A stretch of 64,000 nucleotides of DNA, from IMG/VR virus record IMGVR_UViG_3300021426_000065, positions 103,173 to 167,172 of that record. One strand, 5' to 3'. The stretch's first letter is position 1; each line of letters begins with the position of its first letter. A model generated the notes under the pieces. The model saw nothing but the letters and a program-made list of their open reading frames with translations. It was not told the origin of the DNA and did not search any database. The position numbers and the translations under genes are program-made. This stretch comes from a virus (taxonomy: Duplodnaviria > Heunggongvirae > Uroviricota > Caudoviricetes). This document shows positions 10,170-45,798 of this stretch, one piece after another.

Positions 10170-11010
10170 GGGTGATCACCTAAAAGCACAGAGTCGAGAG
10201 GCAACGGCTCTCTAAAGAAACACCGAGTCCATTCCATGAAATGGTAAAACTGGATGCATCCCCAGTATAACAAGATGCCGCGTTTATAAGCCGCAAGTTC
10301 GCAATAGCTTATACAGTTGCCCACTCTGTAAAAGGAGGCGCGCCGATAGACCGCAAGTTAAATAGTCTATGGATTGGGGCAATGACAGGACTTTGTGGCA
10401 AACTAAGCCCCACAACAAAAGGGATGGACCACAACGCTGAGGAAAACTGCGTAACAAAAGCGGTAGACATCCTAACAAGAATGTTACGACGTATAGGACA
10501 AGGCTCCACCAAAATAGATGGGAAGCGCTATACAGGTGCCCAAATGACGCAGTAGAAGTTTGAAGGCTTCTAGCCGTATAGCTAACGGTGTGTAACGTAA
10601 GAATGGGTTAAATGGAGTTTGAAGAACAGCCAACGCGCAAACTGAAAGGATAGGTATACGTCCATGTTGCTCGGCGCATTATAAAAGAGGAGCAAAATAA
10701 TGAGCTTTCAGCTTCCAGTAAACTGAATACAGTGGTTTTCAGGCTGAAAAGTACTCGGTAGAGCTTACGAGTATAAATAAATGTGAGTCCGCTCATAGAA
10801 GCGGGTTGCGACGAGCAACCAACGTCCACCTAGGGGACGTAATGATTTCTAGGCCGTGGTGAAAAACGGGAAGGCTAAGGAAAATGGATTGGAAGTCCTG
10901 GGCAGCTCTTAGGGTAGCTCCTTAAACTGAAAAACCAAAGCAGTCTCATCTACTGCTCCCGTCACATAGTGTAGCCACTCAGTTGCGGCTGAGTTATCAA
11001 ACCGCATTAT

Positions 11011-12481: not shown

Positions 12482-12530
12482 ATTGTAATTCTTCTAACAT
12501 TTTTTGTTAAAACTAATTTATAGACCCGTC

Positions 12531-12638
12531 AGCAAATTACTTCTTTTTTTGACTGTTAATCAAAAGGTTATTGGTTCGAGTCCAATCGTATTCTACGGAA
12601 TATGTAGCTCAATTGGCAGAGCATTATAAGCGGGTCTA
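12531..12638 (+). ncRNA. Candidate Y-RNA-like (YrlA-like) RNA with a permuted tRNA-like module. The order is terminal stem, anticodon-like hairpin, T arm, loop-closed acceptor-like stem, D arm, terminal stem.
   Basis: The 9-bp terminal helix pairs tagacccgt (12531-12539) with gcgggtcta (12630-12638). Hairpin tttga-ctgttaa-tcaaa. T arm attgg-ttcgagt-ccaat. A 7-bp stem cgtattc/gaatatg is closed by tacg. D arm gctc-aattggca-gagc carries the GG needed for a T-loop contact. Confidence 0.4.
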
Positions 12639-12646
12639 GTTTTTAT

Positions 12647-12721
12647 CGCAACGTGACGCAGTTGGTTTAGCGTACCATTCTGATAAAATGGAAGTCCCTG
12701 GTCCGAGTCCAGGCGTTGCGA
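12647..12721 (+). tRNA. tRNA-Ile, anticodon GAU.
   Basis: Acceptor cgcaacg/cgttgcg. Anticodon stem ccatt/aatgg, loop ctGATaa. T arm cctgg-tccgagt-ccagg. Confidence 0.65.
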
Positions 12722-12900
12722 TTACCCGAGCGACGGGGCGCCGGTCGTAAAGTTCCCATGGCTACTTGTCCCGACAAGCGGTAGGACCGAAGTTGAGGAT
12801 TGGAACATTGAAAAGCACTGACAATATGCGTAGACCCGCACTATGGGGCGGCGAGCGAAGTGCCTAGCATAGGCACATTAACTGCAATGTAATTAGGGTA
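12722..12900 (+). ncRNA. Unassigned GC-rich structured RNA block. It contains the hairpin gtgcc-tagcata-ggcac and a second copy of the tagacccg motif.
   Basis: No credible ORF. High GC. Hairpins. Confidence 0.25.
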
Positions 12901-13105
12901 ACAGATGAGAATTGTGTTTAATGAGCACGATTCGTTGGATATTATTATATCCACCGACCAGTATGTCGAAATAACTACCATGGGCTGGCTGAGAGGCCCT
13001 GGTCCATCTTGGCATGTGGAAGATATCTACACTCATGAGGCCATCGCTTATCCAGCGATACATAAAAGGGAGATCGTCTGGCCACTCGACCGGTAGTGGC
13101 AATTC

Positions 13106-13176
13106 GCACCATTGGTGTAGCGGTAACATCTTTGCCTTCCAAGCAAATGTGGCCAGTTCAAATCTGGTATGGTGCT
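13106..13176 (+). tRNA. tRNA-Gly, anticodon UCC.
   Basis: Perfect acceptor gcaccat/atggtgc. Anticodon stem tttgc/gcaaa, loop ctTCCaa. T loop ttcaaat. Confidence 0.75.
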
Positions 13177-13180
13177 TTAA

Positions 13181-13296
13181 AGACGCATCAGCAATTATTC
13201 TTTTGCAAAGGGAGCCCGTCAAGTGTTGGTGCAACTCCAACCCACCGCAACATGCGGTGGTCGCTCAATAGTAGAAGCGCGGTTATAAGTGCGTCT
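13181..13296 (+). ncRNA. Second candidate Y-RNA-like element. Terminal pairing gacgca/tgcgtc encloses a T-arm-like hairpin (gttgg-tgcaact-ccaac) and a loop-closed 7-bp stem (ccaccgc-aacat-gcggtgg).
   Basis: Same module order as 12531-12638. No ORF. Sits between tRNA-Gly and tRNA-Leu. Confidence 0.3.
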
Positions 13297-13304
13297 TGTT
13301 TTAT

Positions 13305-14116
13305 GCCGCTGTGGTGGAATGGCAGACACAGCAGACTTATATAATTTGAGCACTTGGATACGAAAGTTCCAATGTGAATGTTCCCTAATTCGGCGAAAGT
13401 CCAAATTGGATTACGCCGAGCTAAATGGGATTACGCTAAAAAAATTTTTTCCAGAGAGTAAATTAAAATGGTTTCCTTGTAATGTAGTCACTCTTATAAT
13501 GAGGTGATGAATATGCGAAATGATATTATTGAACGCAAAGAAGAAATTCTCCAATGGATTAATGAAGGACAATCAAAAGCGAATATGGCGCGCGAACTTA
13601 GGTGTAAGCCTGAAACTTTAAATCGTTATCTTAATCTTTGGAATATAACTTACGATGGAAATCAAAGTGGTAAAGGTACTACAAAAATCAGTAATCGTGG
13701 TATGAATTTAATGGAATATCTTGCTGAAAGTAAAGATATTCAAACTAATAAAATTCGCCGCAAATTACTTGAAGAAGGATATAAAGAATATAAATGTGAA
13801 TGTTGCGGGAATACCGAATGGATGGGTAAGCCCATTCCGCTTGAAGTTCATCATAAAGATGGAAACCGCAATAACAATACATTAGAAAATTTTGAACTTC
13901 TTTGTCCTAATTGCCATGCTTTTACTGATAGTTATCGTGGAAAAAATAGCGCAATCTCTAAATGTGTAGAGACTATATAGGAACCACCTAAGTCATAAGA
14001 TATGGTGAAAACATAGTCCAGACTACAACGCAGTAATGCGGCCATAGTAATATGGAGTAGTAAGAAAATCTGCTGCTCTTATGAGCGTGCCGGTTCAAGT
14101 CCGGCCAGCGGCACCA
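13305..14116 (+). tRNA. tRNA-Leu, anticodon UAA, class II. The gene is interrupted between U34 and A35 by a 726-nt group I intron (13339-14064) that carries an HNH homing endonuclease ORF. Exon 1 is 13305-13338 and exon 2 is 14065-14116, ending in CCA.
   Basis: Exon 1 has acceptor gccgctg, a 3-bp D stem and gcaga-ctt. Exon 2 is aaaa-tctgc, then a variable-arm hairpin gctc-ttat-gagc, T arm gccgg-ttcaagt-ccggc, cagcggc, A73, CCA. Acceptor and anticodon stems pair perfectly across the intron. The intron starts atataatttgagc and ends gtagtaaG. It has P/Q/R/S-like elements (aattcggcg, cgccgagc, ccagagagtaaat, catagtccagac). The 5' end resembles the cyanobacterial tRNA-Leu intron (AAAUAAUUGAGCC, recalled from memory). 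Confidence 0.6.
13504..13998 (+). CDS. HNH homing endonuclease encoded inside the tRNA-Leu intron. The frame reads through TAG at 13978 to TAA 13996-13998.
   Basis: Motif CECCGN...EVHHKDGNRNNNTLENFELLCPNCH. Promoter-like TATAAT and Shine-Dalgarno GAGGTGA upstream. Confidence 0.75.
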
Positions 14117-14275: not shown

Positions 14276-14304
14276 TTGACTTTTCTCCAAAATTATTATA
14301 TAAT
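14276..14304 (+). promoter_or_regulatory. Sigma-70 consensus promoter, family copy.
   Basis: TTGACT 14276-14281, TATAAT 14299-14304, 17-nt spacer. Confidence 0.55.
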
Positions 14305-14330: not shown

Positions 14331-14510
14331 ATGAAATTACTTTTTCTTAATAAAGAAGAAAAGAAAGCATTGATTAAATTATTAGTTCCTTTGGCTACTT
14401 CTTCAAAAGGTAATTATGAATTAACAACTATTTTAGAAAAATTGGATTGGAAAGCATATGAATATGCTTTTAACCATCCTAAAGAAGATAAGTATTTGAC
14501 TTTTCCTTAA
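14331..14510 (+). CDS. Small hypothetical protein of 59 aa. The next promoter copy is embedded in its 3' end.
   Basis: Shine-Dalgarno AAAGGGG then ATG. The ORF ends ...KYLTFP, overlapping TTGACTTTTCC. Confidence 0.35.
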   Translation: MKLLFLNKEEKKALIKLLVPLATSSKGNYELTTILEKLDWKAYEYAFNHPKEDKYLTFP

Positions 14511-14537
14511 AATTATGTTATAATAAATATATAATGA

Positions 14538-14806
14538 AGCCCGCTAGCATAATGGTTAATGCACCGGTCTCTAGTCTAAATTGGAGCCTTATATAGTAAT
14601 ATATAAGTGAAAACGCCGCTAATTCGGTGAAGGCTTAACTGCTAATACCGAGCAAGGATTTTTAATCTATGTGTAGAGACTTTATACGGCGCATCCTTAT
14701 AGGATGAAGATAAAGTCCGGACCACGATGCGAAAGCAACGCGTGTGAAGAAAACCGTAACACCTCTGAAGTGGGTTATCTCCGTTCGATCCGGAGGCGGG
14801 CCGCCA
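14538..14806 (+). tRNA. Candidate amber-suppressor tRNA, anticodon CUA, class II, G73, CCA encoded. The gene is split in the anticodon loop after U35 by a 177-nt group I-like intron (14573-14749). Exon 1 is 14538-14572 and exon 2 is 14750-14806.
   Basis: Exon 1 is agcccgc-ta-gcat-aatggtta-atgc-a-ccggt-ctCT. Exon 2 is Aaa-accgt, a 21-nt variable arm (acct/gggt stem), T arm ctccg-ttcgatc-cggag, gcgggcc, G, CCA. Six of seven acceptor pairs form. The spliced loop ctCTAaa matches the A37-A38 pattern of most tRNAs in the island. The intron starts agtctaaattggagcc with a GGAG internal guide for the ..CUCU exon end. It ends gtgtgaaG, the same ..aaG/aaaa junction as the tRNA-Leu intron, and carries P/Q/R/S-like segments (aattcgg, ccgagcaagg, gtagagact, aagataaagtccggacc). 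Confidence 0.5.
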
Positions 14807-14874
14807 TCTTTAAGCGACCATTACAGCAATATTTTATTTATAACTGAAAATTATAAAATATGGTCGCGTTTTTT

Positions 14875-17679: not shown

Positions 17680-17850
17680 CCACAATAGCGGCTAATCTTT
17701 GCGAAGATTAGGAAGGATGAAAACCACTTCCGCCAAACTATTGGCAGCAGCAAACACCTATGCGTAGGTAAAGGCAAATAGTCGCGACGTTGGTAATTAG
17801 ACCCGAAGCAAGAGGCCGAGTAGTATCCGCAACTCTTCCGCCGCGATTGT
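17680..17850 (+). ncRNA. Unassigned structured RNA block containing the hairpins ctaatctt-tgcg-aagattag and ggaag...cttcc, plus a third copy of the tagacccg motif.
   Basis: No ORF. GC-rich hairpins between two tRNAs. Confidence 0.25.
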
Positions 17851-30446: not shown

Positions 30447-31526
30447 ATGGAAGTCAAAGTTGTAATTGGAAGTAATTATGGCGACGAGGGTAAGGGATTG
30501 GTATCGGCAAATCTCGCGCGCGAAGCAAAGCAGGAAAATAAGAAGTCTCTCACTGTATTTTATAATGGCACAGTACAAAGAGCGCATTCTTTTGGAAATA
30601 AAGTACTTCATTGTCTAGCCGCCGGCGAAGAGTTTGGTAGTGATACTTATTATCACCATATGTTCGTCGTAGACCCAATTGCAGTTTGGCTTACACAGTC
30701 TCGTGTATATATTGACCCTAATTGTCGCGTGATTCTACCTTGCGACGTCATGGAAAATCGCAAGGTAGAAAAAGACCGCGGTGACAAGCGCCATGGCTCA
30801 TGTGGATTAGGTCTATTCGCCGCGGTAAAACGTAGTAAAAAATTAGAAGATAATGTTGTAATTAATGATTTTTGTAGTCCATATAATCTGTACTTTAAAT
30901 TAAAAGAAATTGAGCAACGCCATCCAACAGAAAAAGATACATTATATAATATTGATATGTTCATGCGAGCAGTCGCGTGGATTGTGAGTAATTGTAAGAT
31001 TATCACATTTGACGACTTAGTGAAAAATCATCAGTATGATACAATTATTTATGAAGGCGGGCAAGGACTACTACTTGACCAAACTAATATGGATGATTTT
31101 CCGCACCTAACTCCTTCCAGTGTGGGAATGTATAATATTACACATGATATTAATAAATTAAATTGTACGCCCGAACTATTCTATGTTTCGCGCACTTATA
31201 TGACACGGCATGGCGCTGGACCAATGGAGTTTGAGTGCAATAAAGAAGATATTAACCCCAGCATTGTTGATAATGTTAATCAGCCAAATGAATGGCAAGG
31301 TTCTCTACGATTTGGCCGCATTGATTTGAATACGCTTTATCAGCGTATTCAGAAAGATGCCGCGACATATAATAATAATTCAAATATTAATCTTGTCTTT
31401 ACTCAATTAAATTATACAGATAATAAGATTGAGACAAATAATGGACGAGTAGATATTATCAAACCAGATTTTTGTTCAAAGATTTATATTTCAAACGACA
31501 AATATTATATTTTTAATAAGGAGTAA
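30447..31526 (+). CDS. Adenylosuccinate-synthetase-like protein. At 359 aa it is short for PurA, so it is possibly PurZ-like.
   Basis: P-loop VVIGSNYGDEGKGL matches the PurA GDEGKGK motif. The protein is about 70 aa shorter than bacterial PurA. Confidence 0.5.
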   Translation: MEVKVVIGSNYGDEGKGLVSANLAREAKQENKKSLTVFYNGTVQRAHSFGNKVLHCLAAGEEFGSDTYYHHMFVVDPIAVWLTQSRVYIDPNCRVILPCDVMENRKVEKDRGDKRHGSCGLGLFAAVKRSKKLEDNVVINDFCSPYNLYFKLKEIEQRHPTEKDTLYNIDMFMRAVAWIVSNCKIITFDDLVKNHQYDTIIYEGGQGLLLDQTNMDDFPHLTPSSVGMYNITHDINKLNCTPELFYVSRTYMTRHGAGPMEFECNKEDINPSIVDNVNQPNEWQGSLRFGRIDLNTLYQRIQKDAATYNNNSNINLVFTQLNYTDNKIETNNGRVDIIKPDFCSKIYISNDKYYIFNKE

Positions 31527-31528
31527 TT

Positions 31529-32485
31529 ATGTTTATTTTCATTATCGGTATTCTTTTACTAATTGGTTCTATTGTTGCCCTAGTAATAAAAACAGAAGCA
31601 GAATATAAGGCAGTAGTACGAGTAAGTGGAGTTGTAGCATTTATTCTCGCGCTTGTGTTGGTTAGTTTTTCATGCATTTCTTATGTCCCTACCGGCTATA
31701 CTGGTATTGTAACGACATTCGGTAAAGTTCATGACGTAACCCTTGACGCCGGCATTAATTTCCACGCGCCTTGGGATAAGGTAATTACAATGGACAACCG
31801 CGAACAACGTGTTCCATTTACTATGCAGGCATTTTCGTCTGATATTCAGGAAGTATCTATCTCTGGCTCTGTAAACCTAAATATTGATAAGAGTACAGCG
31901 ATGAATCTATATCGTGAAGTAGGTACAAATTACCTAAATATTCTAGTAATGCCACGCATTTCAGAAGAAGTAAAAAGCGTTATTAGCAAATATACCGCCG
32001 AAGGACTTATTGTGAATAGAAATAATCTATCTCTTGAAATGGCTGATTTACTAAAATCCGCGCTGGCGCAGCAAGGTATTAATATCTTATCCGTCGCGGT
32101 TGAAGATGTAGACTTCTCTGATGCTTTTACTAATGCTGTTGAAGCAAAGCAGGTTGCTACACAGGAAAAGCAGAAAGCACAGACCGAACAGGAACGCATG
32201 ACTATGGAAGAAGAAGCGGCTTCAAAGCGTGCCATTATTATTGCTAATGCCGAAGCAGAGAAGGCCAAAATCGCCGCGCAGGCAGACCTTGAAGTCGTAA
32301 AGATTCAGGCCGAGGCCGCGCTATATGCTGGCGAAAAAGAAGCCGAAAAGAATAAGCGTATTGCCGAAGCACTAAGCGACGAACTAATTAAATATTACTG
32401 GATTAAGCAATGGAATGGTAAGCTTCCTACCGTATCCACAGATAATGCCATGTCAATCCTAAATATTCCAGAAATTACAGAATAA
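31529..32485 (+). CDS. SPFH/band-7 (stomatin or prohibitin-like) membrane protein.
   Basis: N-terminal transmembrane helix, SPFH core, Ala/Glu-rich coiled coil. Confidence 0.6.
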   Translation: MFIFIIGILLLIGSIVALVIKTEAEYKAVVRVSGVVAFILALVLVSFSCISYVPTGYTGIVTTFGKVHDVTLDAGINFHAPWDKVITMDNREQRVPFTMQAFSSDIQEVSISGSVNLNIDKSTAMNLYREVGTNYLNILVMPRISEEVKSVISKYTAEGLIVNRNNLSLEMADLLKSALAQQGINILSVAVEDVDFSDAFTNAVEAKQVATQEKQKAQTEQERMTMEEEAASKRAIIIANAEAEKAKIAAQADLEVVKIQAEAALYAGEKEAEKNKRIAEALSDELIKYYWIKQWNGKLPTVSTDNAMSILNIPEITE

Positions 32486-43220: not shown

Positions 43221-44507
43221 ATGGAAAGTAATATGTTATATAATATTAATGATAAACTACCAATAAAACGCTTAATTGTGGCGGCATTACAGCAAGTTGT
43301 TGCTTGCTTTGTCGCAACAATTCTTATTCCTCAAATTTGCGGCCTACCTATCGCGCCCGCAATGCTTGGCGCCTGTATTGGCACTCTTATCTATCAGCTA
43401 TGTACACGTGGTCAAAGCCCCATGTTTATTAGTTCTTCTGGCGCATTTGTTGCCGCGGTAATTGGCGGACTTGCATTAGGCGCGACTCCAAATTATACCG
43501 CAGTAGCAATTGGCGGCGCCATTGTATGTATTGTTTATTGCGCTATTGGTGCAATTATCAATAAATGCGGCACCAATTGGATGAATAAAGTTTTGCCGCC
43601 CGTTGTTATTGGCCCAATCGTTGCAGTTATTGGTCTAAATCTTGCTACATTTATTCCAACTTACTTCCAAATTAATGGTGAATATAGTTTACTTGGCGTT
43701 GGACTTGGTATGCTAACATTAGCAATTACCGCGTTAATTTCGCACTATGGTAAGGGATTTATTAAAAATCTACCATTCCTATTTTCTATTTTAATTGTAT
43801 ATGCTTTCGCCGCGGTATTAACTGCTTGTGGCGTACCAATTATTGATTTCTCCGTATTTAATAATGTAAAGCTAATTCAAATCCCCGATTTTGCTTTTAT
43901 GCATTTTGCCGCGTTTGATTGGACACTACTACCCCAGATTCTAATGTTATTCTTACCACTATCATTAGTTACAATCGCGGAACACACCAGTGACCATAAG
44001 GCTTTAAGCGCTGTTATTGGCATAGACCTAACGCAGAATCCTGGACTTGGCAAGACTCTAATTGGCGATGGTATTGCTACCGCAGCCGGGTGTGTTATTG
44101 GCGGACTACCCAATACAAGCTATGGCGAAAGTGTTGGAACCACTGGTTTTAGCAAGATTTGCTCTCGCTATGTAATTAGTCTCGCCGCCGTTATTATGGG
44201 CGTTGCTGCATTCTTTGGACCACTTCAAGCCTTCTTAGTAAGTATTCCAAGCTCAATTTTCGGCGGCTGTGCCGCGGTTCTTTATGGATATATTACTTTG
44301 TCCGGTATTCGTACCATTAAGGATAATAATATTGACCTAAATAATAATAAGAATGTCACAATCATTGCTTCTGTTTTAACTCTTGGCGTTTCCGGTGCGG
44401 TTTGTAATTTTGGTATTGTAAGCATTGGAACCACTGCACTTGCAATGCTTGTTGGTATTATTTTAAATCTTATTTTAAAGGAGAAAAAAGATGAGAAACT
44501 TTCTTGA
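43221..44507 (+). CDS. NCS2-family nucleobase permease, copy 1.
   Basis: Twelve or more transmembrane helices, Gly-rich NCS2 motifs, EHTSDHKA. Confidence 0.6.
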   Translation: MESNMLYNINDKLPIKRLIVAALQQVVACFVATILIPQICGLPIAPAMLGACIGTLIYQLCTRGQSPMFISSSGAFVAAVIGGLALGATPNYTAVAIGGAIVCIVYCAIGAIINKCGTNWMNKVLPPVVIGPIVAVIGLNLATFIPTYFQINGEYSLLGVGLGMLTLAITALISHYGKGFIKNLPFLFSILIVYAFAAVLTACGVPIIDFSVFNNVKLIQIPDFAFMHFAAFDWTLLPQILMLFLPLSLVTIAEHTSDHKALSAVIGIDLTQNPGLGKTLIGDGIATAAGCVIGGLPNTSYGESVGTTGFSKICSRYVISLAAVIMGVAAFFGPLQAFLVSIPSSIFGGCAAVLYGYITLSGIRTIKDNNIDLNNNKNVTIIASVLTLGVSGAVCNFGIVSIGTTALAMLVGIILNLILKEKKDEKLS

Positions 44508-45798
44508 TTCACATTTCCATATTACCGAGCGCGGTTCAACTATTGGCCGCGAAGTAATTGGTGGACTCGTTACCTTCCTTACGATGGCATACATTCTAGT
44601 TGTTAATCCATCTATTCTTGGAGCAACTGGTATGGATTATACTGCACTGGTAGTTGCAACAGCACTAGCTTCTGCAATTGGCACGCTATTAACCGGCTTT
44701 ATTGCCAACGCGCCAATTGGACAAAGCACCGGATTGGGCGTTAATGCGTTTTTCGCTTATACGCTATGTTTAAAAATGGGCTATACTTGGCAGCAATGCC
44801 TTGGTATTACATTTATTAGCGGCCTTGTATTCCTTGGCATTATGCTTTCGCCACTTCGTAACAAAATCATTGATGTTATTCCAGCCGCGCTAAAACGCGC
44901 AATTAGTGTTGGTATCGGCTTATTTGTTACTTTAATTGCTTTCTTTAATGCCGGTATTATTCAGACTGCCAATGGCATCCTAGACCTTGGTCTAATTACT
45001 TCTGGTCCTGGTCTGCTAGCTATTATCGGTCTAGCAATTACAGCACTACTAATGATTTTCAAAGTAAAAGGCGCAATTCTTATCGGTATTATCGCCGCGA
45101 CACTAATTGGTATTCCAATGGGAGTAACAAATGTTAATATTACTTCTCTTGCCAGTATAAGTGTAGCGCCAGTATTCTTTAAACTATCTTTTACTGGTTT
45201 ACTATCTGCTGGTGTTGTGCCGCTACTTACTTCTATTTTTACACTTGCAATTATTGATACTTTCGATTCTGTCGGTACACTTACCGCAACACTTGCTGAA
45301 TGTGATATGATTGATGAGAACGGTGAAGTCAAAGATAAGACTATGACAAAAGCATTAATTGCTGACGCGGCGGCAACCTGCACTGGCGCACTTACGGGCG
45401 TTAGCACTATCACAAGTTTCGTAGAATCCAGCGCCGGTATAGCAGCGGGAGCACGCACAGGACTAGCCTCAATCGTAACTGGTATTTTATTCTTACTTTC
45501 TTGCGTGCTTGCTCCATTCGCTGGTGTCGTTCCATCAGCAGCAACAGCCGCGGCATTAATTATCGTTGGCATTCTAATGTTTAAGAATGTAAAATACATT
45601 GATTGGACAGATTTAGAAATTGCCATTCCAGCATTTCTAACAATTGTCGCAATGCCTTTTACATATTCAATTTCTAATGGGCTTGGATTTGGATTTATTT
45701 CTTATGTATTAATTAAAATGGTACGTGGAAAGTTTAAAGAAATCCATCCGCTTATGTATGTTCTCGCGGCATTATTCGTATTAATGTTTATTCTATAA
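44491..45798 (+). CDS. NCS2-family nucleobase permease, copy 2.
   Basis: Polytopic membrane protein, paralogue of the upstream gene. Confidence 0.6.
   Translation: MRNFLDSHFHITERGSTIGREVIGGLVTFLTMAYILVVNPSILGATGMDYTALVVATALASAIGTLLTGFIANAPIGQSTGLGVNAFFAYTLCLKMGYTWQQCLGITFISGLVFLGIMLSPLRNKIIDVIPAALKRAISVGIGLFVTLIAFFNAGIIQTANGILDLGLITSGPGLLAIIGLAITALLMIFKVKGAILIGIIAATLIGIPMGVTNVNITSLASISVAPVFFKLSFTGLLSAGVVPLLTSIFTLAIIDTFDSVGTLTATLAECDMIDENGEVKDKTMTKALIADAAATCTGALTGVSTITSFVESSAGIAAGARTGLASIVTGILFLLSCVLAPFAGVVPSAATAAALIIVGILMFKNVKYIDWTDLEIAIPAFLTIVAMPFTYSISNGLGFGFISYVLIKMVRGKFKEIHPLMYVLAALFVLMFIL

What the first reader, a model, noticed from the sequence alone, without database searches (positions are those of the whole stretch)
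12531..13296. Two Y-RNA-like (YrlA-like) candidates in the tRNA island, paired with a Ro60/Rsr-like gene 10 kb downstream
Element 12531-12638 has a 9-bp terminal helix (tagacccgt / gcgggtcta) that encloses a permuted tRNA-like module: an anticodon-like hairpin, a canonical T arm, a 7-bp acceptor-like stem closed by a tetraloop, and a D arm with GG. That is the architecture reported for bacterial Y RNAs that partner Rsr. Element 13181-13296 repeats the plan (terminal gacgca / tgcgtc, a T-arm-like hairpin, a loop-closed 7-bp stem). Gene 22846-24321 is a TROVE+vWA Ro60-like protein. The tagacccg motif recurs at 12828 and 17797.
Basis: inference. Interest (0 to 1): 0.85.

Follow-up and report, generated by a model that had tools for sequence, protein, structure and literature searches.

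The report
Phage Y-like RNAs paired with Ro60-like protein

Summary
I found a third, short member, E3 (14814-14867).

They are not Rfam YrlA. E1 scores 32.9 bits against a cutoff of 69, and E2 has no hit. The YrlA 5' motif (GNCGAA) is absent, and an invariant (A/U)CAGCAA sits at that position instead.

A covariance model found about 50 homologues with strong covariation: 95% of cells paired against 70% in shuffles, and 25 of 27 pairs with double changes.

Gene 22846-24321 is Pfam DUF2828+DUF7788, not Pfam TROVE. Its AlphaFold model nevertheless matches only Ro60 structures at full length.

The RNA family sits next to this gene, on the same strand, in 7 of the 9 cultured phages I examined: Lumos, Felix O1 (FO1a), Listeria LP-048, Staphylococcus S-CoN_Ph5, Enterococcus EA1, Bacillus PK-3 and Campylobacter CP30A. 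It occurs as arrays that mix short forms with tRNA-like forms.

The most likely reading is a Y-RNA-like partner of a divergent Ro60 paralogue within a phage RNA-repair or counter-defence module. Binding and function are inferred, not shown. I rate it a new variant of a known kind.

The parts
12521..12638 (+). E1, a long (tRNA-like) member of the ACAGCAA-stem RNA family. P1 helix 12521-12529 / 12630-12638; UCAGCAA 12529-12535; anticodon-arm-like hairpin 12547-12565 (loop CUGUUAA); T arm 12570-12586; acceptor-like 7-bp stem plus UACG loop 12587-12604; D arm 12607-12622; A-rich linker 12623-12629. tRNA-Ile starts 8 nt downstream.
   Evidence: Sequence; fold z = -3.4; R1 96.6 bits; R2 93.7 bits; Rfam YrlA only 32.9 bits against GA 69.
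13180..13297 (+). E2, the second long member. P1 13180-13187 / 13290-13297; UCAGCAA 13188-13194; pyrimidine-rich segment and GGAGC 13195-13215; 3-bp closing stem CCG 13216-13218 / CGG 13280-13282; T arm 13225-13241 (non-canonical loop UGCAACU); acceptor-like 7-bp stem plus AACAU loop 13242-13260; D arm 13262-13279; UUAUAAG 13283-13289. It starts 4 nt after tRNA-Gly and ends 8 nt before the intron-containing tRNA-Leu.
   Evidence: R1 120 bits; R2 91.2 bits; no YrlA match at E up to 10.
14814..14867 (+). 8-bp helix GCGACCAU / AUGGUCGC (14814-14821 / 14860-14867), ACAGCAA 14823-14829, an AU-rich interior and no tRNA-like module (analogous to YrlB). tRNA-Pro starts 8 nt downstream.
   Evidence: Core-descriptor scan; R2 26.8 bits, E = 5e-4 in 23 kb; conserved in L001, L002, L014 and L016; same form as the short elements next to the gene in Lumos, Staphylococcus, Listeria, Felix O1 (FO1a) and PK-3.
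22846..24321 (+). Ro60-like protein, 491 aa: an N-terminal helical (HEAT-like) domain (Pfam DUF2828) and a C-terminal vWA-like domain (Pfam DUF7788) with an invariant DxSxS MIDAS motif (D296, S298, S300). Inferred protein partner of E1-E3.
   Evidence: Pfam; PHROG 850 'RNA-binding protein'; AF2 pLDDT 81, pTM 0.74; Foldseek top 11 hits all Ro60/TROVE, best E = 4e-8, TM 0.58/0.61; invariant columns; no sequence-level PDB hit.
21208..22282 (+). Context: AAA_33 kinase (21208-21708) and calcineurin-like phosphoesterase (21686-22282). Together they resemble a polynucleotide kinase/phosphatase pair for healing RNA ends.
   Evidence: Pfam.
24760..25590 (+). Context: RlaP-family nucleotidyltransferase (RNA-ligase-associated Pol-beta).
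   Evidence: Pfam PF10127, E = 1e-9; family role as described in PMC7824862.
27792..29021 (+). Context: RNA ligase (PHA02142 OB domain plus RNA_ligase domain).
   Evidence: Pfam.

Best explanation
E1, E2 and E3 are small non-coding RNAs of a conserved phage family. They are cut out of the tRNA polycistron and serve as the RNA partners, that is the Y-RNA analogues, of the Ro60-fold protein encoded at 22846-24321.

The module shared by every member is an 8-9 bp helix formed by the 5' and 3' ends. The 5' strand of that helix is followed at once by the invariant single-stranded (A/U)CAGCAA, and the 3' strand is preceded by an A-rich linker. I infer that this module is the protein-binding site. It occupies the place of the GNCGAA / GGUCCGA Ro-binding motif of YrlA and of animal Y RNAs.

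Long members (E1, E2) also carry a circularly permuted tRNA mimic: T arm, acceptor stem closed by a short loop, D arm, with or without an anticodon-like arm. I infer that this mimic presents a tRNA shape to tRNA-binding factors. Those factors could be the phage's own RNA-healing and sealing enzymes encoded next to the protein (kinase/phosphatase, RlaP, RNA ligase), or host nucleases and defence proteins that would be tethered or decoyed. Short members (E3) would occupy or regulate the protein without that module, as YrlB does.

Shown here: the RNA structure and its conservation; the Ro60 fold of the protein; genomic linkage of the two across very distant phages.

Inferred: physical binding; the role of the ACAGCAA module; the biological function in RNA repair or counter-defence.
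For: 1. RNA family.
- An unconstrained-N pattern found 12 viral loci whose three free stem positions are always complementary, in 5 different versions. The flanking pair outside the pattern also covaries: UA in 7 and AU in 7.
- Model R1 then found about 35 more full-length hits.
- On 46 distinct sequences, 95.3% of cells are paired against 69.6% in shuffles and 27-49% in slid controls. 25 of 27 pairs show double changes. The D arm was not in the model and is still 86% paired, with all 4 of its pairs covarying.

2. Protein. AF2 gives pLDDT 81. The top 11 Foldseek PDB hits are all Ro60/TROVE at full length: phiLo Ro60, D. radiodurans Rsr, Xenopus Ro and human Ro60. The DxSxS MIDAS motif is invariant.

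3. Linkage.
- All CM hits in the 80 protein-centred metagenomic loci lie on the gene's strand.
- A simple descriptor (8-bp stem plus [AT]CAGC[AT]A) gives 192 hits on the gene strand against 35 on the opposite strand over 1.6 Mb. 169 of them are upstream, and the 0-2 kb bin is the peak: 55 hits against 2 on the other strand. 76 of 89 loci have at least one hit.
- In cultured phages whose protein is only 31-43% identical, the elements abut the gene:
  - Lumos: 3 in tandem, 45-300 nt after the stop codon, followed by a hairpin and U-run that looks like a terminator; this is not a tRNA island.
  - Staphylococcus S-CoN_Ph5: 3 short elements right after the stop codon.
  - Enterococcus EA1: 3 elements within 560 nt upstream, two of them at 73 and 89 bits.
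  - Bacillus PK-3: 4 elements.
  - Listeria LP-048: 3 elements.
  - Campylobacter CP30A: 2 elements.
  - Felix O1 (FO1a): 3 elements.
- Two loci found through the RNA alone (L011, L015) carry a 33%-identical DUF2828 gene 0.5-1.5 kb downstream on the same strand.

4. Context. RNA-repair genes surround the protein here, in LP-048 (RtcB and an RNA ligase) and in XbC2 (an RNA ligase and a CCA-adding enzyme).

5. Literature.
- Ro60 with tRNA-like Y RNA pairs is established in bacteria and reported in phages (PMC4201824, PMC12135203).
- The Ro60-like gp130 of the phage Bas63 counters the Ppl defence, and its authors guessed that Y RNAs hide in the downstream tRNA array (bioRxiv 10.1101/2024.10.10.617714). 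That Bas63 is Felix O1-like, and that gp130 corresponds to FO1a gp42, is my own inference; I did not test it.
Against: - There is no direct evidence of transcription, processing or binding.
- In this window the RNAs are 8-10 kb from the gene and sit in a tRNA island. In this phage lineage, co-location could therefore partly reflect conserved synteny between the tRNA island and the repair cluster.
- No element was detected within 6-7 kb of the gene in Vibrio nt-1 or Xanthomonas XbC2.
- I did not run a collection-wide test of whether the RNA ever occurs in phages that lack the gene.
- The descriptor has a background of about 1 hit per 45 kb of strand, so isolated short hits are weak evidence.
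- The protein's similarity to Ro60 is at fold level only (12-14% identity, TM 0.4-0.6).
- The interior between CAGCAA and the T arm is poorly conserved. My structure for that part is uncertain.
Confidence: 0.7

Rival explanations
1. They are ordinary YrlA RNAs, true members of Rfam RF02553, that are too diverged for the curated model, and the protein is simply a diverged Rsr.
For: The order of modules is the same: terminal stem, T arm, loop-closed acceptor, D arm. The YrlA model gives sub-threshold matches to E1 (32.9 bits, E = 4.5e-5 in 1 kb) and to the Lumos element (39.3 bits). Chen et al. 2014 report YrlA-like RNAs in mycobacteriophages. Those may include relatives of the Lumos element, but their supplementary table was not available.
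Against: Scores are about half the gathering score and come only from the generic tRNA-like part. The outer, Ro-binding helix of the model is not matched. E2, Felix O1 10420-10546 and five other loci get no YrlA match. The GNCGAA/CGAA motif is absent, and a different invariant motif, ACAGCAA, takes its place. All six proteins tested here, the window's and five homologues, hit DUF2828+DUF7788 and not Pfam TROVE. Many members have an anticodon-like arm closed as a hairpin, so the module opens between the D and anticodon arms and not within the anticodon stem.
Confidence: 0.13
2. They are structural or processing elements of phage tRNA polycistrons, for example RNase entry sites, spacers or stabilisers, with no specific relation to the Ro60-like protein.
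For: E1, E2 and E3 are wedged 4-8 nt from neighbouring tRNAs and have no promoter-like site of their own directly upstream. In Felix O1, PK-3, Listeria and the rumen phages they sit in tRNA islands.
Against: In Lumos and in Staphylococcus S-CoN_Ph5 the elements directly follow the Ro60-like gene, and there is no tRNA array there. Hits peak in the 2 kb next to the gene. An invariant 7-nt single-stranded motif plus a tRNA mimic with a closed acceptor stem is more than a processing site needs.
Confidence: 0.09
3. They partner with another protein of the repair cluster (RlaP nucleotidyltransferase, RNA ligase, kinase/phosphatase) and not with the Ro60-like protein, for example as a template or substrate mimic.
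For: RlaP, an RNA ligase and a kinase/phosphatase pair flank the Ro60-like gene here. A tRNA mimic would be a natural ligand for tRNA-repair enzymes.
Against: The annotated genes next to the elements in Lumos, Staphylococcus S-CoN_Ph5, EA1 and CP30A include no RlaP or RNA ligase, while the DUF2828 gene is always there. That comparison is biased, because the loci were chosen through that gene. Short members have no tRNA-like part.
Confidence: 0.06
4. They are decayed or rearranged tRNA genes: permuted tRNA pseudogenes, permuted tRNA genes that mature into real tRNAs, or pieces of a two-piece tmRNA.
For: E1 contains all four tRNA arms, including a perfect 7-nt anticodon loop (CU-GUU-AA). The tRNA model gives 24.7 bits on its 5' two-thirds.
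Against: ARAGORN calls neither a tRNA nor a tmRNA there. The acceptor stem is closed by 3-13 nt loops, with no discriminator or CCA. All helices, including the non-tRNA terminal helix, covary across about 50 sequences. The non-tRNA motif is conserved. Short members have no tRNA part at all.
Confidence: 0.02

Closest known systems
YrlA (Rfam RF02553), the tRNA-like bacterial Y RNA bound by Rsr/Ro60 (Chen et al. 2014, PMC4201824)
   Same: About 110-125 nt. The 5' and 3' ends pair in a terminal stem. A conserved purine-rich motif sits on the 5' strand just inside the stem. Then come a T arm, an acceptor-like stem closed by a loop, and a D arm, in that order. It is encoded on the same strand as a Ro60-fold protein, often together with a shorter sibling RNA and RNA-repair genes.
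   Different: The elements fail the curated score (32.9 bits and no hit, against 69). The motif is (A/U)CAGCAA and not GNCGAA(N)G. Many members, E1 among them, close the anticodon arm as its own hairpin. The partner protein is DUF2828/DUF7788 and not Pfam TROVE. The distance to the gene here is 8-10 kb. Copies come in arrays of 2-4 and are embedded among tRNAs.
YrlB, and the phage phiLo Yrl1/Yrl2 (short Y RNA-like RNAs; PMC12135203)
   Same: E3 and the short elements of Lumos, Staphylococcus, Listeria, Felix O1 and PK-3 are about 50-80 nt. They consist of a terminal stem plus the motif, have no tRNA module, and lie next to the Ro60-like gene.
   Different: phiLo Yrl1/2 and YrlB carry the CGAA motif and bind a canonical Ro60. 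The short elements here carry ACAGCAA.
Metazoan Y RNAs and D. radiodurans Yrn1
   Same: The concept is the same: a terminal helix as the Ro60 docking site and a variable distal module that tethers an effector (PNPase for Yrn1).
   Different: There is no sequence similarity, and the bulged GGUCCGA/UUGAC helix is absent. The distal module here is a tRNA mimic or a simple AU-rich loop.
Circularly permuted tRNA genes (Cyanidioschyzon merolae) and two-piece tmRNA
   Same: The 3' half of a tRNA-like cloverleaf precedes the 5' half in the gene.
   Different: Those mature into molecules with a free, CCA-bearing acceptor end. Here the acceptor stem is capped by a stable loop (UACG in E1) and the free ends lie in a separate helix.
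Ro60 / Rsr (TROVE plus vWA) proteins
   Same: The predicted fold of the 22846 protein matches Ro60 over its full length. The vWA domain has a DxSxS MIDAS motif. The gene sits among RNA-repair genes, as in the bacterial rsr-yrlBA-rtcBA operon.
   Different: Neither a single-sequence nor a profile search finds any similarity to Ro60 chains, and identity in the structural alignment is 12-14%. Pfam files the protein under DUF2828/DUF7788. This clade is abundant in phages: 705 cultured phage records.

Membership tests
YrlA (Rfam RF02553) | Score at or above the curated gathering score (69 bits) of the covariance model | tested here: not met
   E1 32.9 bits; E2 no match at E up to 10. Lumos homologue 39.3 bits. 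No YrlA match in L049, L043, L088, L021 or L090 at gathering score, nor in Felix O1 at E up to 1.
YrlA (Rfam RF02553) | 5' motif GNCGAAN0-1G (CGAA), proposed as the Rsr recognition site (Chen et al. 2014) | tested here: not met
   No G.CGAA.?G and no CGAA anywhere in E1, E2 or E3 with 10-20 nt of flank on each side. The equivalent position holds the invariant (A/U)CAGCAA.
YrlA (Rfam RF02553) | tRNA-like domain with a T arm, an acceptor-like stem-loop and a D arm, in that order | tested here: met
   Present in E1 and E2. The helices covary across 46 sequences: T arm 99.6% paired, acceptor 97.1%, D arm 85.8%.
YrlA (Rfam RF02553) | Terminal stem formed by the 5' and 3' ends | tested here: met
   9 bp in E1 and 8 bp in E2. 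8 of the 9 pairs covary and 97.3% of cells are paired.
YrlA (Rfam RF02553) | Encoded within about 4 kb of a Ro60 (TROVE) orthologue, on the same strand | tested here: inconclusive
   Same strand, yes. The distance in this window is 10.2, 9.5 and 8.0 kb. In other phages it ranges from about 20 nt to 2.4 kb. The neighbouring protein has the Ro60 fold but is not Pfam TROVE.
YrlA (Rfam RF02553) | Bound by Ro60/Rsr in vivo, and carrying tRNA-type modifications | not testable with these tools
   Needs co-immunoprecipitation and modification mapping.
Ro60 / TROVE protein family | Match to the Pfam TROVE domain, or sequence similarity to known Ro60 proteins | tested here: not met
   Pfam gives DUF2828+DUF7788 with weak VWA hits and no TROVE. 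Neither phmmer nor a profile of 31 homologues finds a Ro60 chain in the PDB.
Ro60 / TROVE protein family | Fold: alpha-helical HEAT-repeat domain followed by a vWA domain, superposable on Ro60 | tested here: met
   AF2 pLDDT 81.2, pTM 0.74. Foldseek against the PDB: ranks 1-11 are all Ro60/TROVE over 491-574 aligned columns, E from 4e-8 to 2e-4. The best TM is 0.58/0.61, to the phiLo Ro60.
Ro60 / TROVE protein family | MIDAS motif (DxSxS) in the vWA domain | tested here: met
   D296, S298 and S300 (VDVSGSM) are invariant in 31 homologues.
tRNA (RF00005 / ARAGORN) | Canonical cloverleaf with a free acceptor end, called by tRNA finders | tested here: not met
   ARAGORN does not call E1 or E2. 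RF00005 gives 24.7 bits, below 29, on part of E1 only. The acceptor stems are loop-closed and there is no CCA.
Two-piece (permuted) tmRNA | Permuted tRNA-like domain with a CCA end, plus a tag reading frame | tested here: not met
   ARAGORN finds no tmRNA in the window. The elements have no CCA and no reading frame.

The most novel reading that the evidence does not exclude
There is a second Ro60/Y-RNA-type ribonucleoprotein system, distinct in sequence from the known one and specific to phages. In it, the DUF2828 clade of Ro60-fold proteins recognises a terminal helix plus single-stranded ACAGCAA, where canonical Ro60 recognises the CGAA / GGUCCGA site. Phages would encode arrays of such RNAs. 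Some of these display a capped, permuted tRNA that decoys or tethers host tRNA-targeting defence nucleases, or that recruits the phage's own tRNA-repair enzymes. This would supply the missing RNA component behind the reported anti-Ppl activity of Bas63 gp130. It would also assign a function to unannotated gaps in the tRNA islands of Felix O1-like, P100-like and many gut and rumen phages.
Probability: 0.4. Interest if true: 0.8.

Novelty: new variant of a known kind. Interest (0 to 1): 0.66.

Why it matters
Ro60 with Y RNA is a conserved but poorly understood RNA-surveillance particle. Here a clean, testable RNA signature (helix plus ACAGCAA) is tied to a large protein family that Pfam lists as of unknown function: 705 cultured phage genomes and thousands of metagenomic proteins. 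That family includes genetically tractable phages such as Felix O1 and its relatives, mycobacteriophage Lumos, Listeria P100-like phages and Staphylococcus phages.

- It gives candidate identities to unannotated or mis-annotated stretches in phage tRNA islands ("hypothetical protein", "tRNA-OTHER").
- It offers a natural pair of specificities, CGAA against ACAGCAA, for dissecting how Ro60 rings choose their RNAs.
- It suggests a concrete RNA cofactor for a Ro60-like protein already reported to counter a bacterial defence system.
- It shows that capped, permuted tRNA mimics recur as a solution in such particles.

Tried and rejected
- **DNA similarity to cultured phages around the elements.** Only homing-endonuclease and tRNA fragments matched, so the phage has no close cultured relative.
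- **Sequence and profile searches of the protein against the PDB.** Nothing was found. Only the fold search was informative.
- **A hairpin pairing GCAA of the motif with a downstream UUGC** (in model R1). It is not conserved in the wider family, where many members have no complementary segment, so I dropped it and now treat the motif as single-stranded.
- **The minimum-free-energy fold of E2, which pairs CUUUUGC with the D-arm 3' strand.** It is not conserved in L011, L012 or L015, so I rejected it in favour of the D arm, which covaries.
- **The extra TAGACCCG copies at 12831 and 17798.** They have no CAGCAA and no partner arm, so they are not family members.
- **Partial covariance-model hits covering only the T, acceptor and D positions.** These are junctions between two adjacent ordinary tRNAs and are false positives.
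- **L071:7310 and L076:4152.** They look like 3' ends of a tmRNA or tRNA that carry CCA, so I excluded them from the second model.
- **Literature searches for DUF2828 and for the motif.** No functional description turned up. The supplement of Chen et al. 2014, which lists phage YrlA candidates, is not held. The 2020 Annual Review is not held either.
- **Vibrio nt-1 and Xanthomonas XbC2.** No convincing element lies within 6-7 kb of the gene.
Full report
**1. The observation**

The window carries a phage tRNA island. ARAGORN tRNAs and Rfam calls more, all on the + strand.

In 5'-to-3' order E1 contains:
- UCAGCAA;
- a pyrimidine-rich stretch;
- a hairpin with a 6-bp stem and the textbook 7-nt anticodon loop CU-GUU-AA;
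- a canonical T arm (GGUUCGAGUCC);
- a 7-bp stem closed by a UACG tetraloop;
- UA;
- a D arm with GG in its loop;
- an A-rich linker.

E2 (13180-13297) has the same plan. Both fold better than their dinucleotide shuffles, with z = -3.4 and -3.1. They share AGAC-NNN-UCAGCAA on the 5' side and UUAUAAG-NNN-GUCU on the 3' side, and exactly 88 nt lie between these blocks in both.

**2. Is it a known family?**

At gathering thresholds Rfam reports only tRNAs. At permissive thresholds YrlA (RF02553) matches E1 with 32.9 bits against a gathering score of 69. The score comes from the tRNA-like core, and the outer helix of the model is marked as unpaired. E2 gets no YrlA match at all.

According to Chen et al. 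2014 (PMC4201824), YrlA has three characteristic features: a tRNA-like T/acceptor/D module, a 5' GNCGAAN0-1G motif thought to be the Ro60 site, and a location within about 4 kb of a TROVE gene on the same strand. E1 and E2 have the first feature. They lack the second, since there is no CGAA anywhere in them. They lie 9.5-10.2 kb from the candidate gene.

**3. Homologues and covariation**

I scanned IMG/VR with a pattern that leaves the three inner stem positions free. It returned 12 loci. In every hit the free positions are complementary, in five versions: CCG/CGG, GCA/UGC, ACA/UGU, GUA/UAC and GAA/UUC. The pair flanking the pattern also switches, U-A in 7 and A-U in 7.

A covariance model built from these 14 distinct sequences (R1) found about 35 further full-length matches in loci I had fetched through the protein. 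All are on the protein's strand.

I counted pairs on 46 distinct sequences:

| Measure | Observed | Column shuffles | Partners slid by 1-3 columns |
|---|---|---|---|
| Cells forming a standard pair | 95.3% | 69.6% | 27-49% |
| Pairs with changes on both sides | 25 of 27 | mean 19.7 | 9-13 |

The alignment was fitted to the model, which favours the modelled helices. The D arm, however, was not in that model. It still pairs in 86% of cells, and all four of its pairs covary.

The segment between the motif and the T arm is variable. It is usually a small hairpin, and sometimes a 3-bp stem closes the junction. My drawing of that part is tentative.

**4. The protein**

ORF 22846-24321 hits Pfam DUF2828 (N-terminal) and DUF7788 (C-terminal, vWA-like). 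It does not hit TROVE. PHROGs calls it "RNA-binding protein". Neither phmmer nor a 31-sequence profile finds any Ro60 chain in the PDB.

An AlphaFold2 model (pLDDT 81, pTM 0.74) was searched with Foldseek against the PDB. Ranks 1-11 are exclusively Ro60/TROVE structures aligned over their full length: Thermus phage phiLo Ro60, D. radiodurans Rsr, Xenopus Ro and human Ro60. E-values run from 4e-8 to 2e-4, the best TM-score is 0.58/0.61, and identity is 12-14%. Isolated vWA domains follow below. A DxSxS MIDAS motif is invariant in the family.

So "Ro60-like" is right at the level of fold. By sequence this is a separate family.

The neighbouring genes are a kinase and a phosphoesterase (a polynucleotide kinase/phosphatase-like pair), an RlaP nucleotidyltransferase, an RNA ligase and a Band-7 protein. 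That is an RNA-repair neighbourhood of the kind described for jumbo phages (PMC7824862).

**5. Is the RNA linked to the protein?**

The protein family is large. More than 7,900 clusters scored E <= 1e-5, and 705 cultured phage records carry it. Five homologues from very different phages all show DUF2828+DUF7788 and no TROVE.

*Cultured phages.* Using R1 and a broader model R2, I found elements next to the gene, on the same strand, in 7 of the 9 phages examined.

| Phage | Elements found | Position relative to the gene |
|---|---|---|
| Mycobacteriophage Lumos | 3 in tandem: short, tRNA-like, short | 45-300 nt after the stop codon, then a hairpin and U-run that looks like a terminator; no tRNA array |
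| Enterococcus phage EA1 | 2 long (73 and 89 bits) and 1 short | within 560 nt upstream |
| Bacillus phage PK-3 | 2 long and 2 short | within 2.4 kb upstream |
| Staphylococcus phage S-CoN_Ph5 | 3 short | immediately after the stop codon, under tiny annotated "hypothetical" ORFs |
| Listeria phage LP-048 | 3 | within 340 nt upstream |
| Campylobacter phage CP30A | 2 | within 175 nt upstream |
| Salmonella phage FO1a (Felix O1) | 2 short and 1 long | 0.5-1.2 kb downstream, between tRNAs |

Rfam has no match to the Felix O1 elements even at E = 1. That stretch is conserved in 260 records, mostly Felix O1-like phages of Escherichia, Salmonella and Shigella. There it is annotated as "unknown", "hypothetical protein" or "tRNA-OTHER".

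*The common core.* Across all of these, the shared core is an 8-9 bp terminal helix of free, covarying sequence. ACAGCAA follows the 5' strand directly (UCAGCAA in E1 and E2), and an A-rich linker precedes the 3' strand.

*Enrichment.* I scanned 89 protein-centred loci (1.6 Mb) with a crude descriptor of that core:
- 192 hits on the gene strand against 35 on the opposite strand;
- 169 of the gene-strand hits lie upstream of the gene;
- the 0-2 kb upstream bin is the peak, with 55 hits against 2 on the other strand;
- 76 loci have at least one hit.

*From RNA to protein.* Two loci retrieved through the RNA pattern alone (L011, L015) contain a DUF2828 gene only 33% identical to the window's. It lies 0.5-1.5 kb downstream of the RNAs on the same strand.

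*Against universality.* Nothing convincing was found near the gene in Vibrio nt-1 or Xanthomonas XbC2. I could not run a collection-wide test for the RNA in phages that lack the gene.

**6. A third member in the window**

The descriptor and R2 both pick up 14814-14867. It has the helix GCGACCAU/AUGGUCGC, ACAGCAA and an AU-rich interior, and it lies 8 nt before tRNA-Pro. R2 gives 26.8 bits, E = 5e-4 in 23 kb. It is conserved in four related contigs. It is the short, YrlB-like form. The window therefore carries an array of two long RNAs and one short RNA, as the cultured phages do.

**7. How it most likely works**

*Shown.* This is a conserved structured RNA family with a common helix-plus-ACAGCAA module and an optional capped, permuted tRNA mimic. 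The protein has a Ro60 fold. The two are linked in the genome across phages of Actinobacteria, Firmicutes, Proteobacteria and Campylobacterota.

*Inferred.*
- The helix plus ACAGCAA is the docking site for the Ro60-like ring. It is the only feature shared by long and short forms, and it sits where the CGAA / GGUCCGA site sits in YrlA and in animal Y RNAs.
- The RNAs are released from the tRNA polycistron by the enzymes that process the flanking tRNAs. The gaps to those tRNAs are 4-8 nt, and no promoter-like site lies directly upstream of the elements.
- The tRNA mimic tethers or decoys tRNA-binding factors. These could be the adjacent healing and sealing enzymes, or host nucleases and defence proteins.

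*Precedents from the literature.* In D. radiodurans, Y RNA tethers Ro60 to PNPase, and YrlA is a substrate of tRNA-modifying enzymes (PMC4201824). The phiLo Ro60 with Yrl1/2 binds host PNPase (PMC12135203). Bas63 gp130, a Ro60-like protein encoded directly upstream of that phage's tRNA array, counters the Ppl defence, and its authors speculated that some of the "tRNA genes" are Y RNAs (bioRxiv 10.1101/2024.10.10.617714). FO1a gp42 occupies the same position in the Felix O1 genome. If Bas63 is Felix O1-like, which I inferred but did not test, the elements found here are concrete candidates for that RNA.

**8. Comparison with what is known, and novelty**

Functionally and architecturally this is a Y RNA / YrlA analogue. 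As a family member it fails two tested defining features of YrlA, the curated score and the CGAA motif, and its partner fails the sequence definition of TROVE. I therefore file it as a new variant of a known kind: a parallel Ro60-like/Y-like pair with a different recognition motif.

Some mycobacteriophage members may already have been counted as "YrlA-like" by Chen et al. 2014. Their supplementary table was not available, and this tempers the claim of novelty. I found no description of the ACAGCAA module, of the short forms, or of the association with DUF2828 proteins in Felix O1, Listeria, Staphylococcus, Enterococcus, Campylobacter or rumen phages.

**9. Verdict**

- That the RNA family is real: about 0.95.
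- That it is the partner of the Ro60-like protein: about 0.7.
- That its role is tRNA-related repair or counter-defence: about 0.4.
- Interest: 0.66.

Noticed in passing
window 13306-14107 (+): tRNA-Leu(UAA) interrupted in its anticodon loop by a group I intron of about 720 nt that carries an HNH endonuclease ORF (13504-13980). The 5' exon is GCCGCTGTGG...CAGACTT. The 3' exon is AAAATCTGCTG...CAGCGGCACCA, so CCA is encoded. This is the same anticodon-loop position, as far as I recall, as the classical cyanobacterial and plastid tRNA-Leu intron.
   Followed up: partly
window 14537-14810 (+): A second intron-containing tRNA. Group I intron match at 14563-14742 (49.3 bits against GA 50, E = 4e-11), flanked by tRNA-like exon halves. 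It lies directly upstream of E3.
   Followed up: partly
window 12909-13028 (+): Sub-threshold but significant match to cow-rumen-3 RNA (RF03083; 60.2 bits against GA 86.7, E = 1e-12). It overlaps a DUF3800-XI-like hairpin (RF02975, 28.7 bits) and lies between E1 and E2. This suggests a rumen origin and yet another ncRNA in the island.
   Followed up: no
window 17800-17848 (+), and 12723-12908 (+): Unassigned intergenic stretches in the tRNA island. The roughly 45 nt just before tRNA-Arg(UCU) are 85-98% identical in more than 12 loci whose Ro60-like proteins are only about 57-64% identical to the window's. That is unusually strong conservation for an unannotated segment. 12723-12908 is conserved only in close relatives, and its fold energy is not better than its shuffles.
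   Followed up: partly
window 14276-14304 and 14496-14524 (+): Two nearly identical strong promoter-like sites (TTGACT-17-TATAAT, 11 of 12 matches) set in a repeated sequence of about 40 nt. They are probably phage promoters inside the tRNA island.
   Followed up: no
E2 (13225-13279) and its relatives in L007, L016 and L018: Where the D loop has AG in place of the usual GG, the T loop has U(G/C)C in place of UUC. This may be covariation of the tertiary 18-55 contact of the tRNA elbow. The four sequences are close relatives, so it could be a single event.
   Followed up: no
L088 946-1554 and 6312-6661; L090 2112-2463: Related phages carry a ROOL RNA (337 bits) and phage-encoded tmRNAs in the same tRNA island upstream of the Ro60-like gene.
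   Followed up: no
window 31529-32485 (+); L093 5759-6691: A Band-7/SPFH protein lies near the Ro60-like gene both in this window and in mycobacteriophage Lumos. This could be a further conserved neighbour of the system.
   Followed up: no
window 43221-45798 (+): Two adjacent xanthine/uracil permease-family genes and an adenylosuccinate-synthetase-like gene (30447-31526) in a phage context. These are auxiliary nucleotide-metabolism genes.
   Followed up: no
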